Positions 39,583 to 48,310 of a DNA stretch of 64,000 nucleotides are shown one piece after another. Positions within the stretch are counted from its first letter, which is position 1, and every line of letters starts with the position of its first letter. The stretch is from a phage. The stretch is taken from sequence record PZ179880.1; one strand, written 5' to 3'. The notes beneath the pieces are model-generated. The model was not told the origin of the DNA. It did no database searches and saw only the letters and a program-made list of their open reading frames with translations. The position numbers and the translations under genes were made by a program.

Positions 39583-40056
39583 TTATTTGAATGATTTGAC
39601 ATACTGAACAGAACCTTTGCTATTCACAAAGGCGATTTTACCATTTTTGTTATACATGGTGGCAGTACGCTGATAGCCATAAGTTTGCTTACCAGATTGA
39701 TAACCAACTAATGCAAAATTATCTTCGCCCATTTTATTCTGCTTAGCGCGGATGCGTTCATGGCCGTGTGCCATAAGAACCTTAGCATCACCAGTTGCAA
39801 TGGATCTACGAGTTTTTTCATCTTCAACTGTATTAACAAAATCGTCAAATGAATCAAATTTAGCATGGGATTTATTATACAGTTTTCCATCTACTGCATA
39901 ATTATATCCCTGTACATCCATCTCAACTTCTGTACCATCATCCAATACAGCAGTGATTTTTTGACCTTTTTTAAATTTCAAAAGATCAGTAAAAGATTCA
40001 GCAATAATTTGAGAATTAATAGCTGCTTCAGTGATAAATTCTTGATATGTTTTCAT
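39583..40056 (-). CDS. Internal head protein with capsid-targeting leader
   Basis: 157 aa; N-terminus MKTYQEFITEA matches the T4 IP capsid-targeting consensus. Confidence 0.7.
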   Translation of the reverse strand: MKTYQEFITEAAINSQIIAESFTDLLKFKKGQKITAVLDDGTEVEMDVQGYNYAVDGKLYNKSHAKFDSFDDFVNTVEDEKTRRSIATGDAKVLMAHGHERIRAKQNKMGEDNFALVGYQSGKQTYGYQRTATMYNKNGKIAFVNSKGSVQYVKSFK

Positions 40057-40065
40057 ATGTTTCCT

Positions 40066-40482
40066 TTAAATGTAAATATTTTTGCCGTAATACTTGTACC
40101 AGTGTGGCTTCATTAAAATTTTTTCATCGAGTCGTTGTTGACTCAATTTAATAGCTGATTTGCATGGATTATAATCATTTTTCCATTCTGCTGGAATATC
40201 GCTGATGTCAGGAACTTCAGTATCTTTTATACTAAACCCACGTTTTAAGCATTCCGTTATAATGTCTGATTGACGCTTTCGCAAAAATTCTAACTTATCG
40301 TAAAAGAACGTAACATGACCAGAACCTAAAATAAACTCGGAAGATATTTTAAAATCTTTAACCCGCTTACCATTTGCCACGTGTTTACGAACTATACCAA
40401 AAACACGTGGCAATTCACGATACTCAGCCATAAGATGTTGGTCGGTCAGTTCAGAAACAAGTGTTAAATTGATACGAGTCAT
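40066..40482 (-). CDS. denV: Endonuclease V (pyrimidine-dimer DNA glycosylase)
   Basis: Start trimmed to [12 protein letters not shown] (138 aa as in T4); GGAGG ribosome-binding site 6 nt upstream. Confidence 0.93.
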
Positions 40483-40509
40483 AATTTCCTCCAAGTAGTT
40501 GATGAATGT

Positions 40510-40539
40510 ATAGTATCAAAGTCCTTGGAGGAAGTAAAC
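40510..40539 (-). promoter_or_regulatory. Early sigma70-type promoter upstream of denV
   Basis: Minus strand GTTTAC - 18 bp - TGA TACTAT. Confidence 0.55.
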
Positions 40540-40540
40540 A

Positions 40541-40837
40541 CTATTTTTCTGAAGCGCCTGAAATATATTTTTCAAGACGTTGTTTCATTAGCGAGCCGTT
40601 CTTAGCGATTTCTTCTGGTTTATCGCACATACGCAACAAGGCTTCAAGCTTAACGATATCGCTGGTACGTTCAAATTTGCGAGTATCTATCTTACTAGCA
40701 AGTTCAGAAATACGTGCTAATAGACTTTCAGCTTCAACCAAAGCTGCACCTAGCTTAGTTGCAAATGTGTCAGTAGCTTCGTTAAGAATAGATTCTGATA
40801 AAAATTCACTATATGTTTTCATATATACGCTTTCCAA
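40541..40837 (-). CDS. Internal head protein with capsid-targeting leader
   Basis: 98 aa; N-terminus [13 protein letters not shown]. Confidence 0.65.
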
Positions 40838-41307
40838 GTTCCTGTTTTAAATGTTGAGATTACGCGTTTCGCGCGATTAGGTGTCTGACGATACCATTTA
40901 GATTGGGCTAGATTTACTGCTGCTTCATCCCAGCGTTTTTGTTGGAGCATACGTAAAGAATTAGTAAATCCTGCCACGCCGGTTTCTCCCATTTGAAAAA
41001 CCATATTAATTAATGCACAGCGGCGAACAGCATCAAGAGAATCATAAACTGGTTTTAATTTAGCATTTCTCAGAATTCCGCGAACAGCAGCATCAACATC
41101 CTGATTAAAGAGTTTTTCAGCCTCATCTTTTGTAATTACACCATTGCAATTACGCCCAATAGCTTTATCTAATTCAGATTTGGCAACACTAAGTGATGGA
41201 CTTTTGGTAAGCAAATGACCAATGCCAATAGTGTAATAGCCTTCTGTGTCTTTATAGATTTTAAGTCTAAGACCTTCATCTATACGTAACATTTCAAATA
41301 TATTCAT
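40819..41307 (-). CDS. e: Lysozyme (endolysin)
   Basis: 162 aa, near-identical to T4 lysozyme ([33 protein letters not shown]...); late promoters upstream. Confidence 0.95.
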
Positions 41308-41320
41308 AATACCTCCTAAG

Positions 41321-41341
41321 TATTTATAGAAGGTATTTATA
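41321..41341 (-). promoter_or_regulatory. Tandem late promoters (TATAAATA) upstream of lysozyme gene e
   Basis: Plus-strand TATTTATA at 41321-41328 and 41334-41341, i.e. TATAAATA on the minus strand, followed by AGGAGG and the e start. Confidence 0.7.
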
Positions 41342-41343
41342 AA

Positions 41344-41799
41344 TTAAAAGAGGCTGTTCATTATTCGGTAAAGTGAAGGGCCCATCACATATTGCCACTG
41401 GGTACGAGGAATAAGAGCAAAAGCATCCATCTCTGGAATCATAACGCCATCTTTATTTTCAAAATAAGACTCGCAATAGCAATTTCTAAACATCTCATGC
41501 TCTACTGGAATCGTATAATAAAATAACTGTAGGTCTTTATTACTAGAATATTTAAATACACCTAGGTCTTCTAGAAGGTCTGGATTATAATTGTTAAAAC
41601 CAGTCTCTTCTAAACATTCTCTTCGTGCTGCATCTAATGCGCTTAAATCAGAATTTTCTACACGGCCCTTTGGAATATCCCAGCGATGTGCCATCATTCC
41701 AGGCTTACGAGAACCAGTAACCCGACCCATAAATAAATCTTTATCTTCTGTCATAAAGATAATACCAGCTGATAATGTTTTCATTTTAATTTCCTGCAA
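41344..41799 (-). CDS. nudE: Nudix hydrolase
   Basis: 151 aa; Nudix box GRVENSDLSALDAARRECLEETG. Confidence 0.85.
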   Translation of the reverse strand: MQEIKMKTLSAGIIFMTEDKDLFMGRVTGSRKPGMMAHRWDIPKGRVENSDLSALDAARRECLEETGFNNYNPDLLEDLGVFKYSSNKDLQLFYYTIPVEHEMFRNCYCESYFENKDGVMIPEMDAFALIPRTQWQYVMGPSLYRIMNSLF

Positions 41800-42143
41800 T
41801 CAATCACAAACTCTTTCATTGATTCATTTTCAATATAAGACATGTAGCTATTATATTCTTTTAATTGTATTTTGTAATCCTTTTTTCTTTGCCAATTTAT
41901 TTTAAAATTATCATAATGAAAATATAGAATGATACAAAAGAATGAAAATAATGAAATAATTTTAGTATAGCGAAGTTCACTCCAAACTTCTATTATATTT
42001 ACTGTGCCATCGATGTTTAAAATAAGACAGTCAATTAACAATCCAAAAAGACTACCCGCAAGAGCTGCAGCCAACGCCACAGCAAAAATTAAAAATGACC
42101 CAGGAAGCGAATATTTGACTTTATTTAGTTTTGGCTTTTGCAT
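41781..42143 (-). CDS. Membrane protein
   Basis: 120 aa, hydrophobic helices. Confidence 0.5.
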   Translation of the reverse strand: MQKPKLNKVKYSLPGSFLIFAVALAAALAGSLFGLLIDCLILNIDGTVNIIEVWSELRYTKIISLFSFFCIILYFHYDNFKINWQRKKDYKIQLKEYNSYMSYIENESMKEFVIDCRKLK

Positions 42144-46882: not shown

Positions 46883-46887
46883 AATTT

Positions 46888-46974
46888 GGTGCGAGAAGTG
46901 GGACTCGAACCCACAAGGAAATCATTCCGCAGCATTTTAAGTGCTGTGCCTTTACCAATTTGGCCATTCTCGCG
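46888..46974 (-). tRNA. tRNA-Leu (anticodon TAA), type II
   Basis: 87 nt; acceptor GCGAGAA/TTCTCGC, anticodon loop CTTAAAA. Confidence 0.85.
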
Positions 46975-46975
46975 C

Positions 46976-47048
46976 TGGGAATAAAGGACTCGAACCTTTG
47001 CATCCTGGAATCAAAATCCAGTGCCTTACCAACTTGGCTAATTCCCAA
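46976..47048 (-). tRNA. tRNA-Gln (anticodon TTG), CCA not encoded
   Basis: Acceptor TGGGAAT/ATTCCCA, anticodon loop TTTTGAT; 1 nt from tRNA-Leu (dimeric precursor). Confidence 0.85.
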
Positions 47049-47144
47049 TTATTAACAAAGGCTCTTAAGCAAGAACCCTTGATGATAGAGGGTATTAATC
47101 AGTGCGATATGAGTTAATAATAACAAATAATTCTTAAAGCATAT

Positions 47145-47432
47145 TTACCATTTATAATAATACATATTTACGATGCATTCAAGACCCAAAGGATTCTTGA
47201 AAATATCATATTCAAGAGGACCTTTTTCTGTTTCAATAAAGAAATCAAAATTTACTGTATTAAATTTACGTTCTTCCTTCACTAATTTAACTTGAGAAGA
47301 TGAACGGTCAATGTAAACCTTTTCAACTTCAAAACATGTTAAAATGCCATAATCATCAATCAAAGCTTTAGCCGCGTCTTGATCATATTTATATCCATTT
47401 TCAATGGATGATACTTTCGCATAAAGAATCAT
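47145..47432 (-). CDS. Hypothetical protein
   Basis: 95 aa ORF. Confidence 0.5.
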   Translation of the reverse strand: MILYAKVSSIENGYKYDQDAAKALIDDYGILTCFEVEKVYIDRSSSQVKLVKEERKFNTVNFDFFIETEKGPLEYDIFKNPLGLECIVNMYYYKW

Positions 47433-47434
47433 TA

Positions 47435-47833
47435 TCAGCCTTCATCAACAATAGTGTGAGTATTAGCATTTACGATTTGCCACCAATCAAAGCGATTAGA
47501 ATCCATCGGTTTGTTTTCATTTTCTTTGATAATGTCACGGAGTTCATCTTCAGAGAATGCTTTAGCAATTAAATCGGTATACCCACCACGGGGATAATAA
47601 TTATCACCTGCAAACAAAAGGAAATTTACCTTCCCGGAAGCAACATATGCTTCCTTAGGATACTTGTTTCCTGCGTGGTCAACCACTTCAATATAACGGT
47701 AAGGAATATCGGTTCTTTCAACCCATTGCCATGCCGCCGCAGGGGAATCGAAAGCATCTACACCTAAACGATTATCTTCATCTTTAGACGGATTATTTTC
47801 GTAATCCGCATATACATAATATTCAACGTTCAT
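47435..47833 (-). CDS. Hypothetical protein
   Basis: 132 aa ORF. Confidence 0.5.
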   Translation of the reverse strand: MNVEYYVYADYENNPSKDEDNRLGVDAFDSPAAAWQWVERTDIPYRYIEVVDHAGNKYPKEAYVASGKVNFLLFAGDNYYPRGGYTDLIAKAFSEDELRDIIKENENKPMDSNRFDWWQIVNANTHTIVDEG

Positions 47834-48018
47834 TATTCACCTTTAGAAATTTTATCCATAACAATAGCAATTAAACCAATTAAAAATGCTACTACAAGTG
47901 AAAAAACATTTTCTGCCGTAGTCAATAATCCGCATATAAATCCAACAAACATTGAAAAACTGAAAGCGGAAGCAGAAATTGCAATAGCAACATTTCGAAT
48001 TAATTCACAACGTTTCAT
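47833..48018 (-). CDS. Small membrane protein
   Basis: 61 aa, hydrophobic. Confidence 0.45.
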   Translation of the reverse strand: MKRCELIRNVAIAISASAFSFSMFVGFICGLLTTAENVFSLVVAFLIGLIAIVMDKISKGE

Positions 48019-48046
48019 TTTATTCTCCTCAGTAGTAGATAGGGTA

Positions 48047-48076
48047 ATAGTATCACTACCCTATCTAAAAGTAAAC
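48047..48076 (-). promoter_or_regulatory. Early sigma70-type promoter
   Basis: Minus strand GTTTAC - 18 bp - TGA TACTAT. Confidence 0.55.
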
Positions 48077-48310
48077 TTATTTTTTACGAAAAATTGATTT
48101 ATTTTCTGCTGCCCATTTTTCAATAACTGCAGCAGGACCAGTAACAACAATTTTATCACCGTAATCTTCTGCGGCGAGTTGACCGAAATTATCTAATGCA
48201 TCACGAAGAACTCCATGAGGCATTTCACCCATTTTATCTTTCTTGCCAGTGTAAATAAACTCAACTTTTACATCAGCAGTTTCAGCAATAAATTCTTGGT
48301 AAGTTTTCAT
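48077..48310 (-). CDS. Internal head protein with capsid-targeting leader, at the ipI locus
   Basis: 77 aa; N-terminus MKTYQEFIAE is the T4 capsid-targeting consensus; early promoter upstream. Confidence 0.7.
   Translation of the reverse strand: MKTYQEFIAETADVKVEFIYTGKKDKMGEMPHGVLRDALDNFGQLAAEDYGDKIVVTGPAAVIEKWAAENKSIFRKK

What the first reader, a model, noticed from the sequence alone, without database searches (positions are those of the whole stretch)
39583..48310. Four genes with internal-protein capsid-targeting leaders, one more than T4
Four minus-strand genes begin with the capsid-targeting consensus ([44 protein letters not shown]) at 39583-40056, 40541-40837, 44672-45235 and 48077-48310. 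In T4 this leader directs IPI, IPII and IPIII into the head, and they are injected with the DNA; IPI* blocks the GmrSD restriction system. Their mature sequences here do not match what I recall of the T4 IPs, and the locus arrangement differs (one on each side of denV, one orphan near the RNA region, one at the ipI locus). These are strong candidates for injected anti-defence effectors of unknown specificity.
Basis: partly seen in the sequence, partly recalled or inferred. Interest (0 to 1): 0.7.

Follow-up and report, generated by a model that had tools for sequence, protein, structure and literature searches.

The report
Known T-even phage internal-protein genes
The four genes are real head-packaged "internal protein" genes of a T2/T6-like coliphage, but all four sequences are already in public genomes. 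Three are named (Ip4, an Ip5 relative, Ip6), Ip6 has recently been shown to block the host McrBC nuclease, and only the fourth, so far unannotated, is a fresh lead.

Summary
Four minus-strand ORFs start with MKTYxEF[IL]xE, against about 0.003 expected by chance. All four keep the residues shown experimentally to drive capsid targeting (Y4, F7) and prohead-protease cleavage ([IL]8, E10).

The window is a Tequatrovirus with T2/T6-type glucosylation genes.
- **ipA (39583-40056)** is Ip4.
- **ipB (40541-40822)** is the RB69ORF127c-type paralogue of Ip5.
- **ipD (48077-48310)** is Ip6. It is 100% identical to Bas37_0260, reported in a 2025 preprint as an McrBC inhibitor.
- **ipC (44672-45235)** is labelled "hypothetical" in every listed phage record that holds it. 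It belongs to a family conserved across several Tevenvirinae genera.

With the leaders removed, none resembles T4 IPI, IPII or IPIII.

Having one more such gene than T4 is unremarkable. Close relatives carry five, and this window has lost one by a clean 517-bp deletion. The "injected anti-defence" reading is the established view of this gene class. It is demonstrated for Ip6, while Ip4-Ip10 tested negative against GmrSD variants.

The only surprising item concerns ipC. Its 99%-identical Bas37 orthologue scored "essential" in a transposon screen. That screen has known false positives, and natural frameshifts and gene-less relatives argue against strict essentiality.

Verdict: a real feature, largely already known, of modest interest.

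The parts
39583..40056 (-). ipA = ip4 (Ip4/IpIV internal head protein), 157 aa. The leader is MKTYQEFITE|AA. The predicted mature protein is 147 aa, 16.5 kDa, pI 9.1.
   Evidence: ORF and motif. It is 99% identical to the gene ime09 names 'Ip4' and matches the T2 'IpIV internal head protein' cluster. GiZh annotates the same position as ipIV. It is a full-length match to PF24183 DUF7412 (1e-95) and to phrog_3155 'internal virion protein'. It occurs in 471 phage records, including Klebsiella phages at about 68% identity. The RBS plus leader DNA is 95% identical to that of T4 ipII.
40541..40822 (-). ipB = Ip5-family paralogue (RB69ORF127c type), 93 aa. The leader is [10 protein letters not shown]|S, with a second LNE|A site at residue 15. 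Its start overlaps the stop codon of lysozyme gene e.
   Evidence: It is 100% identical to the ime09 'RB69ORF127c' protein, and its 90%-identity cluster includes RB69ORF127c and 'internal head protein' names. It matches phrog_3499 'internal head protein' at 1e-46. Its mature part is 53% identical to Ip5 (bas37_0261) at E 2e-18. It occurs in 497 records, 239 of them at 80% identity or more.
44672..45235 (-). ipC = unnamed CTS-bearing gene (RB14ORF136 / RB69ORF149c family), 187 aa. The leader is MKTYAEFLTE|AA. The predicted mature protein is 177 aa, 19.6 kDa, pI 9.5. It has a conserved N-domain, a Pro/Ala/Lys-rich linker and a C-terminal helical bundle.
   Evidence: It hits phrog_2280 'unknown function' and has no Pfam or NCBIfam family. 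It occurs in 165 phage records. Every annotated record among the 50 listed calls it 'hypothetical protein' or 'Phage protein', and 164 of the 165 are at least 95% identical. Distant homologues at 20-30% identity occur in Mosigvirus, Dhakavirus, Enterobacter, Klebsiella and Erwinia phages and keep the leader with E10. The AF2 model built on 32 sequences has pLDDT 77, with a disordered leader and a C-terminal bundle at pLDDT about 90. It is 185/187 identical to bas37_0243, which HIDEN-SEQ called 'Essential'.
48077..48310 (-). ipD = ip6 (Ip6/ipVI), 77 aa. The leader is MKTYQEFIAE|T. The predicted mature protein is 67 aa, 7.4 kDa, pI 6.5. It is identical to the McrBC inhibitor Bas37_0260.
   Evidence: It is 77/77 identical to bas37_0260. 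It is 98.7% identical to the T6 gene, 94.8% to GiZh 'ipVI' and 78% to VR7 'ip6', and occurs in 246 records. It matches phrog_8111 'internal virion protein'. The McrBC phenotype comes from the preprint.
41321..41341 (-). Two tandem T4-type late promoter boxes (TATAAATA at 41321-41328 and 41334-41341) upstream of e. They are the likely late-transcription source for e-ipB and, by read-through, denV-ipA.
   Evidence: Exact matches. No terminator-like site was found on the minus strand between 41307 and 39583. That these promoters function is an inference.
48341..48369 (-). Sigma-70/early-type promoter-like site (TTTACA-17-TATTAT with an extended TG) directly upstream of ipD.
   Evidence: 10 of 12 matches. 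The sequence is shown. This is a consensus match only.
45330..45353 (-). Intrinsic terminator (GCCCCGACC-GAAA-GGTTGGGGC followed by a T run) upstream of ipC, at the end of the rnaC homologue. It lies within the 40-bp repeat 45317-45356 that marks the deletion junction of a fifth CTS-type gene.
   Evidence: Terminator scan. BLAST against ECO07P4, Bas37 and ime09 shows 517 bp absent here, with window 45317-45356 matching both flanks.
44645..44663 (-). Terminator-like hairpin immediately downstream of ipC. Together with the upstream terminator it makes ipC a single-gene unit. Relative to T4, window 44664-45322 is an insertion.

Best explanation
The window comes from a T2/T6-like Tequatrovirus. 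It carries four members of the known, polymorphic family of T-even internal-protein (ip) genes: ip4, an ip5 paralogue, ip6 and one unnamed member.

Each product starts with the roughly 10-residue capsid targeting sequence (CTS). From T4 work, this sequence docks the protein into the scaffolding core of the prohead. The prohead protease gp21 then cuts after Glu10 and releases the mature protein into the head. There it stays with the DNA and is ejected into the next host together with the genome, before any phage gene is expressed.

The mature parts are unrelated cassettes that are swapped by recombination in the conserved flanks and leader. Ip6 neutralises McrBC, which fits a phage whose glucosylation genes are of the T2/T6 type. 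By my recollection of the classical literature, that type leaves part of the hmC unglucosylated. Ip4 and the Ip5 paralogue most likely inhibit other host nucleases or defences that are not yet identified. ipC is packaged in the same way, but it may have a more general role, in head morphogenesis or DNA association or against a K-12 factor.

Shown here by sequence: the leaders, the gene identities and the cassette boundaries. Taken from the literature: CTS function, the Ip6-McrBC link, and the GmrSD targets of T4 Ip1-3. Inferred: that these four proteins are packaged and cleaved in this phage, and the targets of Ip4, ipB and ipC.
For: - **Leaders.** All four have Y4, F7, [IL]8 and E10. These are the positions shown by suppressor analysis of IPIII to determine targeting (4, 7) and processing (8, 10) (PMC9026906).
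- **Chance.** Four matches against about 0.003 expected.
- **Identities.**
- **Cassette structure.** T4 homology at 95% runs through 57B and the first 33 nt of ipD, stops at 48278 and resumes at 48056. The RBS and leader of ipA are 95% identical to those of T4 ipII, while the mature-coding part has no T4 match.
- **Mature parts.** They are unrelated to each other and to T4 IPI-III, apart from ipB and Ip5.
- **Function in the class.** T4 Ip1, Ip2 and Ip3 each block one GmrSD variant. The Bas37_0260 (= ipD) knockout becomes McrBC-sensitive, and its Tn-seq read count is 8.4 in K-12 against 309 in CFT073.
- **Context.** The window encodes an alpha-glucosyltransferase (PF11440, 1.8e-237) and a beta-glucosyl-HMC-alpha-glucosyltransferase (phrog_842, 7e-89) next to the dCMP hydroxymethylase gene. 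This is the same layout as Bas37.
- **Late transcription.** Late promoter boxes lie upstream of e-ipB.
Against: - No virion proteomics for these four proteins was found, so packaging and cleavage are inferred.
- No canonical TATAAATA lies within 160 nt upstream of any of the four genes. ipC has only AATAAATA at -45, and ipD has an early-type promoter. The T4 ip genes also lack a TATAAATA box within 160 nt, so this is weak evidence.
- Ip4-Ip10 gave no reproducible inhibition of the GmrSD variants tested, so anti-defence activity of Ip4 remains undemonstrated.
- The Ip6-McrBC evidence is a single preprint. It shows a genetic requirement, not injection or direct binding.
- ipC behaves unlike a dispensable effector in Bas37.
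Confidence: 0.85

Rival explanations
1. At least ipC, and possibly the basic Ip4, is mainly a structural or DNA-associated core protein rather than an anti-defence effector. It would aid prohead assembly or charge neutralisation of the packaged DNA, as IPIII partly does in T4.
For: - Mature ipC matches IPIII in size and charge: 19.6 kDa and pI 9.5, against 20.4 kDa and pI 9.65.
- It has a Pro/Ala/Lys-rich linker and long helices.
- The family is conserved across several Tevenvirinae genera and is 95-100% identical within Tequatrovirus. Classical ip cassettes vary much more.
- bas37_0243 scored 1 hit in 48 TA sites ('Essential'), while its neighbours and the other ip genes were saturated.
- T4 IPIII mutants have about 40% of the normal burst and more polyheads.
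- This phage lacks IPIII.
Against: - T4 and GiZh lack ipC altogether.
- G29 and OE5505, which are ipC-bearing relatives, carry independent 1-nt frameshifts in ipC in their deposited genomes.
[quoted passage not shown] Its authors allow for locus-dependent effects.
- hhalign finds no similarity to IPIII beyond the leader.
Confidence: 0.25
2. ipC is a conditionally essential injected inhibitor of a factor present in E. coli K-12. This is the same logic as Ip6 and McrBC, but with full restriction when the inhibitor is missing.
For: - The 'Essential' call for bas37_0243 was made on a K-12 host.
- Natural loss or frameshift of ipC occurs in phages isolated on other hosts.
- There is precedent: Ip6 is needed only on McrBC+ K-12, and the Ip5 gene bas37_0261 shows log2FC -2.09 on CFT073.
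Against: - No target is known.
- No insertion mutants exist in the library, so host dependence cannot be read from the data.
- The screen has known false 'essential' calls.
- ipC sits between two terminators. That could prevent timely expression of the transposon's anti-CRISPR marker and so mimic essentiality. This last point is my inference.
Confidence: 0.2
3. The genes are simple orthologues of T4 ipI, ipII and ipIII with the same specificities.
For: The leaders are shared and two of the loci are shared.
Against: With the leaders removed, the best E-values against T4 IPI, IPII and IPIII range from 0.055 to above 100 in a nine-sequence database. The PHROG families are different. DNA homology to T4 stops at the end of the leader.
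Confidence: 0.01
4. The leaders are recombination relics or chance, and the proteins are ordinary cytoplasmic phage proteins that are not packaged.
For: There is no proteomic evidence, and no canonical late promoter lies directly upstream.
Against: All four leaders keep every functionally mapped CTS residue. Glu10 is kept in at least 90% of a 32-member ipC-family alignment in which the rest of the protein is only 13-28% identical to ipC. The count is four against 0.003 expected. AF2 predicts the leader as a disordered N-terminal tail.
Confidence: 0.03

Closest known systems
[quoted passage not shown]
   Same: They share the same N-terminal capsid targeting sequence, with Y/F4, F7, [IL]8 and E10. 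The RBS and leader DNA are the same (ipA versus T4 ipII 95%; the ipD 5' flank equals the ipI 5' flank). Two of the loci are the same. They are small, mostly basic proteins, and the class-level role is injected anti-restriction.
   Different: The mature sequences are unrelated. The T4 proteins target three GmrSD variants, whereas Ip6 targets McrBC and Ip4-10 were negative on GmrSD. Two positions are not used in T4: ipA lies between denV and vs.8, and ipC lies between e.8 and rnaC.
Ip4, Ip5 and Ip6 of T2, T6 and the RB phages (alternative ip genes; Repoila et al. 1994, as cited in PMC12373910 and in GenBank notes)
   Same: ipA is 99% identical to Ip4 of ime09 and T2. ipD is 98.7% identical to the T6 gene and 94.8% to GiZh ipVI. 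ipB is 48-53% identical to Ip5 and belongs to the same PHROG-level family.
   Different: ipB sits in the e-denV interval rather than at the ipI locus, and is the RB69ORF127c variant. This window has only Ip6 at the ipI locus, whereas Bas37 and GiZh have Ip5 plus Ip6 there.
Bas37_0260 (phage KarlGJung, MZ501089), McrBC inhibitor
   Same: It is 77/77 identical to ipD. It has the same flanking genes and sits in the same alpha-gt plus beta-alpha-gt genome type.
   Different: There is no difference at protein level. Its function was not tested in this phage, and the evidence is a single preprint.
bas37_0244-type CTS-like protein (MKSY[AT]QFLNEA, 157 aa)
   Same: In relatives it is the tandem neighbour of ipC. 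It has a CTS-like leader, and its C-terminal helical domain is related to that of ipC (hhalign probability 82%, E 1e-5).
   Different: It is absent from this window because of the 517-bp deletion at 45317-45356. It is non-essential in Bas37, with 29 of 34 TA sites hit.

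Membership tests
T-even internal proteins (CTS-bearing, head-packaged) | N-terminal capsid targeting sequence with the mapped determinants: aromatic residue at 4, Phe at 7 (targeting), Ile/Leu at 8 and Glu at 10 (processing) | tested here: met
   All four leaders are MKTY-x-EF-[IL]-x-E. The determinants are taken from PMC9026906.
T-even internal proteins (CTS-bearing, head-packaged) | Cleavage by prohead protease gp21 after the leader Glu | not testable with these tools
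   The [LI]xE motif is present at residues 8-10 in all four. Gene 21 is outside the window, and no proteomic data were found.
T-even internal proteins (CTS-bearing, head-packaged) | Physical presence in the mature head and ejection with the DNA | not testable with these tools
   Inferred from T4 IPIII and CTS-fusion experiments. There is no direct evidence for these proteins.
T-even internal proteins (CTS-bearing, head-packaged) | Location in the known ip loci (57B-trna.4; e-denV) | tested here: met
   ipD is at the ipI locus and ipB is in the e-denV interval. ipA is adjacent, in the denV-vs.8 interval, which is the annotated Ip4 position in ime09 and GiZh. ipC is at a further locus, e.8-rnaC.
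T-even internal proteins (CTS-bearing, head-packaged) | Late-gene expression, so that the protein is available for prohead assembly | tested here: inconclusive
   Two TATAAATA boxes lie upstream of e-ipB-(denV-ipA). There is none within 160 nt of ipC, ipD or ipA. ipD has an early-type promoter-like site. The T4 ip genes also lack a box within 160 nt.
T-even internal proteins (CTS-bearing, head-packaged) | Dispensable on standard laboratory hosts | tested here: inconclusive
   From HIDEN-SEQ tables for identical or near-identical Bas37 genes: Ip6 had 15 of 15 TA sites hit (non-essential), while ipC had 1 of 48 ('Essential'). T4 ipI-III were non-essential. The screen has known false positives, and natural ipC frameshifts exist. 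Ip4 and ipB are absent from Bas37.
Orthologues of T4 IPI / IPII / IPIII | Sequence similarity of the mature protein | tested here: not met
   There are no significant matches once the leaders are removed. hhalign of the ipC family against IPIII aligns only the leader, at probability 3.7%.
Ip6 / Bas37_0260 McrBC inhibitor | Sequence identity to the tested protein and the same locus | tested here: met
   Identity is 77/77. The downstream neighbours have the same sizes (186, 399 and 288 bp), and gene 57B lies upstream, directly in the window and beyond the extra Ip5 gene in Bas37.
Ip6 / Bas37_0260 McrBC inhibitor | Loss of the gene sensitises the phage to McrBC | not testable with these tools
   Reported for Bas37 only.
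Ip4 (DUF7412) | Full-length match to the family model and to named Ip4 proteins | tested here: met
   PF24183 matches residues 1-157 of a 158-position model at E 1e-95. Identity to ime09 Ip4 is 99%.
GmrSD-inhibiting injected proteins (IPI*-like function) | Inhibition of a GmrSD-family type IV nuclease | not tested
   The literature reports that ip4-10 showed no reproducible inhibition of the GmrSD variants tried. No sequence relative of ipA, ipB or ipD was found among solved PDB structures.

The most novel reading that the evidence does not exclude
ipC (44672-45235) represents an unrecognised, widely conserved family of capsid-targeted proteins in Tevenvirinae. Unlike the fast-turnover ip cassettes, it would be required or nearly required for productive infection in some phage-host combinations. 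On this reading the 'Essential' call in Bas37 on K-12 is real. The protein would be either a packaged morphogenetic or DNA-organising factor, or an injected inhibitor of a K-12 function that otherwise blocks these phages completely.
Probability: 0.2. Interest if true: 0.55.

Novelty: already known. Interest (0 to 1): 0.3.

Why it matters
Internal proteins are the first phage-made molecules to reach the cytoplasm, so they are a natural place to look for pre-emptive anti-defence factors. T4 Ip1-3 and Ip6 show that each can disarm a specific type IV restriction enzyme.

For this window the practical value is limited. It assigns names to four genes and predicts that the phage resists McrBC through Ip6.

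The open questions are the targets of Ip4 and of the RB69ORF127c-type Ip5 paralogue, and what ipC does. ipC is worth a targeted experiment for three reasons. It is unannotated in hundreds of genomes. It is conserved across genera. And a public transposon data set flags its orthologue as essential without comment.

Tried and rejected
- **Orthology to T4 IPs.** Rejected after BLAST with the leaders removed and after hhalign.
- **Other libraries.** The PDB sequence searches for ipA, ipB and ipD and NCBIfam for all four gave nothing significant. The Pfam hits for ipC (cytochrome b562 and others) are below threshold.
- **Virion proteomics.** The literature searches were unproductive, and the fPS-65 paper has no proteome. 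Searches for the ORF names and for the leader strings found nothing relevant. Repoila et al. 1994 could not be read.
- **Late promoters.** The search was inconclusive.
- **rnaC/rnaD region.** Rfam has no family for it, and only tRNAs were found.
- **Reliability of the ipC 'essential' call.** It is tempered by the authors' own list of false positives, by natural frameshifts, and by relatives that lack the gene.
- **Not done.** I did not scan the complete T4 genome for a distant ipC homologue. The evidence for absence is its absence at the syntenic site, together with the tblastn result with ipC, which returned no record below 85% identity.

Full report
**Observation.** A six-frame search of the 64-kb window finds exactly four matches to MKT[YF]x[ED]F. 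All are on the minus strand and all are the first residues of ORFs:
- 39583-40056 (157 aa, MKTYQEFITEA)
- 40541-40822 (93 aa, [11 protein letters not shown])
- 44672-45235 (187 aa, MKTYAEFLTEA)
- 48077-48310 (77 aa, MKTYQEFIAET)

All four also fit the longer pattern ending in [ILV]xE. The expected number of loose matches is 0.003, both analytically and in 300 shuffles. The leader-coding 36 nt form a four-copy DNA repeat family of 69-83% identity. The only correction to the finding concerns the second gene. It starts at the ATG at 40822, as in public annotations, not at the TTG at 40837.

**What the window is.** The 10-kb region matches 1,211 phage records, nearly all Tequatrovirus and related genera. 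The best is Escherichia phage ECO07P4 at 98.7% over 96% of the query. The window also encodes dCMP hydroxymethylase, an alpha-glucosyltransferase (PF11440, E 1.8e-237), and, next to gene 42, a 282-aa beta-glucosyl-HMC-alpha-glucosyltransferase (phrog_842, E 7e-89). That is the T2/T6-type glucosylation set, not the T4 alpha-gt plus beta-gt set.

**Identity of the four genes.** All four exact protein sequences already exist in public collections.
- **ipA (39583-40056)** is Ip4. It is 99% identical to the gene ime09 names Ip4 and falls in the cluster holding 'IpIV internal head protein' of T2. It is a full-length match to PF24183 (DUF7412) and phrog_3155 'internal virion protein'. GiZh annotates the same position as ipIV. 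It occurs in 471 phage records, including Klebsiella phages at about 68% identity.
- **ipB (40541-40822)** is the RB69ORF127c-type protein, called 'internal head protein' in many records and matching phrog_3499. Its mature part is 53% identical to Ip5.
- **ipD (48077-48310)** is Ip6. It is 98.7% identical in T6, 94.8% to GiZh 'ipVI' and 78% to VR7 'ip6', and occurs in 246 records.
- **ipC (44672-45235)** is the exception. It occurs in 165 records that are almost all at least 95% identical. Every annotated record among those listed calls it 'hypothetical protein' or 'Phage protein'. It matches phrog_2280 'unknown function' and has no Pfam or NCBIfam model.

**Relation to T4.** T4 has ipII and ipIII between e and denV, and ipI between 57B and trna.4. 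With the leaders removed, none of the four mature proteins is significantly similar to IPI, IPII, IPIII or to each other. The one exception is ipB and Ip5.

DNA comparison shows where homology to T4 breaks.
- At the ipI locus, 95% identity runs through 57B and the first 33 nt of the gene (the leader). It stops at 48278 and resumes at 48056.
- The RBS and leader of ipA are 95% identical to those of T4 ipII, while the rest of the gene has no T4 match.
- ipC lies in a 659-bp insertion (44664-45322) at the rnaC terminator.

So the leader and the flanks are the conserved frame, and the mature-coding parts are exchangeable cassettes. GenBank notes ('replaces ipI') and reviews describe the class in the same way.

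**Is four unusual?** It is not. A local tblastn of nine CTS-type proteins against seven genomes gave these sets:

| Genome | CTS-type genes present | Count |
|---|---|---|
| T4 | IPI, IPII, IPIII | 3 |
| ime09 | Ip4, ipB, ipC, 0244 type, Ip5 | 5 |
| Kelasse | Ip4, ipB, ipC, 0244 type, Ip6 variant | 5 |
| ECO07P4 | Ip4, ipB, ipC, 0244 type, Ip6 | 5 |
| Bas37 | ipC, 0244 type, Ip6, Ip5 | 4 |
| GiZh | Ip4, 0244 type, Ip6, Ip5 | 4 |
| This window | Ip4, ipB, ipC, Ip6 | 4 |

The '0244 type' is a 157-aa protein with the related leader MKSY[AT]QFLNEA. In this window it is missing because of a clean 517-bp deletion. The junction is a 40-bp terminator repeat at 45317-45356.

**Mechanism.** The capsid targeting sequence was defined as the first 10 residues of IPIII. 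Suppressor analysis placed targeting mainly at residues 4 and 7, and processing at residues 8 and 10. Fusing the CTS to foreign proteins packages them into heads and delivers them into infected cells (PMC9026906; PMC3012670). All four leaders here have Y4, F7, I/L8 and E10.

The AF2 model of ipC predicts the leader as a disordered tail, with pLDDT 38 for the first 10 residues. In a 32-member alignment of the ipC family whose members are otherwise only 13-28% identical to ipC, Glu10 is kept in at least 90% of sequences. I therefore consider packaging and cleavage after Glu10 very likely, although both are inferred.

For transcription, two canonical late boxes lie upstream of e (41321-41341), and no terminator-like site was found before ipA. 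ipD has an early-type promoter-like site at 48369-48341. ipC is bracketed by two terminators and has only a 7-of-8 late box. This part is inconclusive. The T4 ip genes themselves have no TATAAATA within 160 nt.

**Function.** The class-level idea that internal proteins are injected anti-restriction factors is established.
- IPI* blocks GmrSD of strain CT596.
- Silas et al. 2025 showed that Ip2 and Ip3 each block a different GmrSD variant with no cross-protection (PMC12373910).
- The same paper tested ip4-ip10 against further GmrSD variants and found no reproducible inhibition.
- The HIDEN-SEQ preprint (10.1101/2025.11.20.689424) reports that Bas37 gene bas37_0260, at the ipI locus, is needed on K-12 BW25113 but not on a strain lacking McrA, McrBC and Mrr. 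Its deletion makes the phage specifically sensitive to McrBC.

I fetched Bas37 (MZ501089, phage KarlGJung). Its bas37_0260 is 77/77 identical to ipD and has the same neighbouring genes. In the supplementary tables, insertions in bas37_0260 average 8.4 reads after growth on K-12 against 309 on CFT073.

The specificity of ipD is therefore known, at preprint level. It fits this phage. By my recollection of the classical literature, T2/T6-type glucosylation leaves a fraction of hmC unglucosylated, and unglucosylated hmC is an McrBC substrate. The window carries that glucosyltransferase set.

For Ip4 and ipB no target is known. One hint is that the Ip5 gene of Bas37 (bas37_0261) has log2FC -2.09 (q = 0) on the uropathogenic strain CFT073.

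**ipC.** This is the only part that goes beyond what is annotated.

A full HMMER scan of 1.84 billion representative proteins found only six hits. One was a 204-aa relative at 31% identity with the leader MITFNEFLNE|S. That relative connects to 351 phage records in Mosigvirus, Dhakavirus and phages of Enterobacter, Klebsiella and Erwinia. Every annotated record among the 30 listed calls the gene hypothetical.

The family alignment shows four parts: the leader, a conserved N-domain, a Pro/Ala/Lys-rich linker of variable length, and a helical C-domain. In the AF2 model the C-domain is a confident bundle of long helices. Fold searches returned only the protein's own family or generic coiled coils. 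The C-domain is distantly related to that of the 0244-type protein (hhalign probability 82%), so the two are probably old tandem paralogues. The mature protein resembles IPIII in size and charge but not in sequence.

The striking datum comes from the HIDEN-SEQ reference library. There bas37_0243, which is 185/187 identical to ipC, has 1 hit in 48 TA sites and is classed 'Essential'. Its neighbours and the other CTS genes are saturated (0242: 23/23; 0244: 29/34; 0260: 15/15; 0261: 18/18). T4 ipI, ipII and ipIII are non-essential. The paper's main text does not mention this gene.

Four points argue against taking the call at face value.
- The authors list six T4 genes that scored essential although earlier studies reported them as non-essential. 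They allow for locus-dependent effects.
- T4 and GiZh have no ipC.
- The deposited genomes of G29 and OE5505 carry independent 1-nt deletions that frameshift ipC.
- ipC sits between two terminators. In my view, this could hamper expression of the transposon's promoter-dependent anti-CRISPR marker.

I therefore treat ipC as a packaged protein of unknown role, and its essentiality as a lead rather than a result.

**Verdict.** But the four genes are known members of a known, well-described polymorphic family, and one of them has an identified target. The count 'one more than T4' carries no weight. Interest is modest at 0.3. It rests mainly on ipC and on the still unknown targets of Ip4 and the Ip5 paralogue.

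Noticed in passing
window 45317-45356 (junction); compare L004 7016-7532 and L005 8714-9230: Relative to ECO07P4, Bas37 and ime09, a clean 517-bp deletion has removed a fifth CTS-like gene (MKSY[AT]QFLNEA, 157 aa, bas37_0244 type). The junction is a 40-bp repeat containing an intrinsic terminator. In relatives that gene has a canonical TATAAATA box directly upstream.
   Followed up: yes
L006 (GiZh KT184311) 12469-12939: GiZh carries the bas37_0244-type CTS-like gene at 98% identity in a stretch with no annotated CDS. It lacks ipC.
   Followed up: partly
window 160-1008 (-), 999-1739 (-), 12146-13348 (-): A beta-glucosyl-HMC-alpha-glucosyltransferase (phrog_842) lies next to the dCMP hydroxymethylase gene, and there is also an alpha-glucosyltransferase (PF11440). 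This is the T2/T6-type DNA glucosylation set rather than the T4 type, which fits carriage of the anti-McrBC Ip6.
   Followed up: partly
window 46030-47047: The tRNA cluster holds 11 genes (Arg, His, Asn, Tyr, CAU-anticodon Met/Ile, Thr, Ser, Pro, Gly, Leu, Gln) and has no segB homing endonuclease. T4 has 8 tRNAs plus segB at this site. A 2026 paper links SegB and tRNA-Tyr to evasion of the Septu defence in T6 (PMC13096335, abstract only seen).
   Followed up: no
window 42486-43094 and 43136-43729 (e.5 and e.6 homologues): In the Bas37 HIDEN-SEQ table for K-12 versus CFT073, the genes at the e.5 and e.6 positions (bas37_0239 and bas37_0240) have log2FC -3.62 and -6.49 (q = 0). These genes of unknown function therefore look strongly required on the uropathogenic strain. 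The Ip5 gene bas37_0261 has log2FC -2.09.
   Followed up: no
window 39572-40823: The ipA-denV-ipB segment is a mosaic module. denV here is only 75% identical to T4 denV, while the flanking vs.8 and e genes are 92-93% identical. ipB falls in the same 90%-identity cluster as a protein of the Mosigvirus RB69. This suggests exchange between genera.
   Followed up: partly
L007 (G29 MK327940) and L008 (OE5505 NC_054926), ipC orthologues: Independent single-base deletions, at nt 151 and at nt 301 of the gene, split ipC into two annotated ORFs in two deposited genomes. They are either real inactivating mutations or sequencing errors.
   Followed up: partly
window 45661-46011 (-): A 116-aa ORF (phrog_3355, unknown function; RB69ORF150c type) sits between the rnaC/rnaD homologues and tRNA-Arg. 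T4 has no gene at this position.
   Followed up: no
window 38890-39477 (-), vs.8 homologue: Besides phrog_1488 (unknown function), the protein shows a weak match (E 5.6e-6) to part of the terminase large subunit PHROG. This probably reflects a P-loop-like segment.
   Followed up: no
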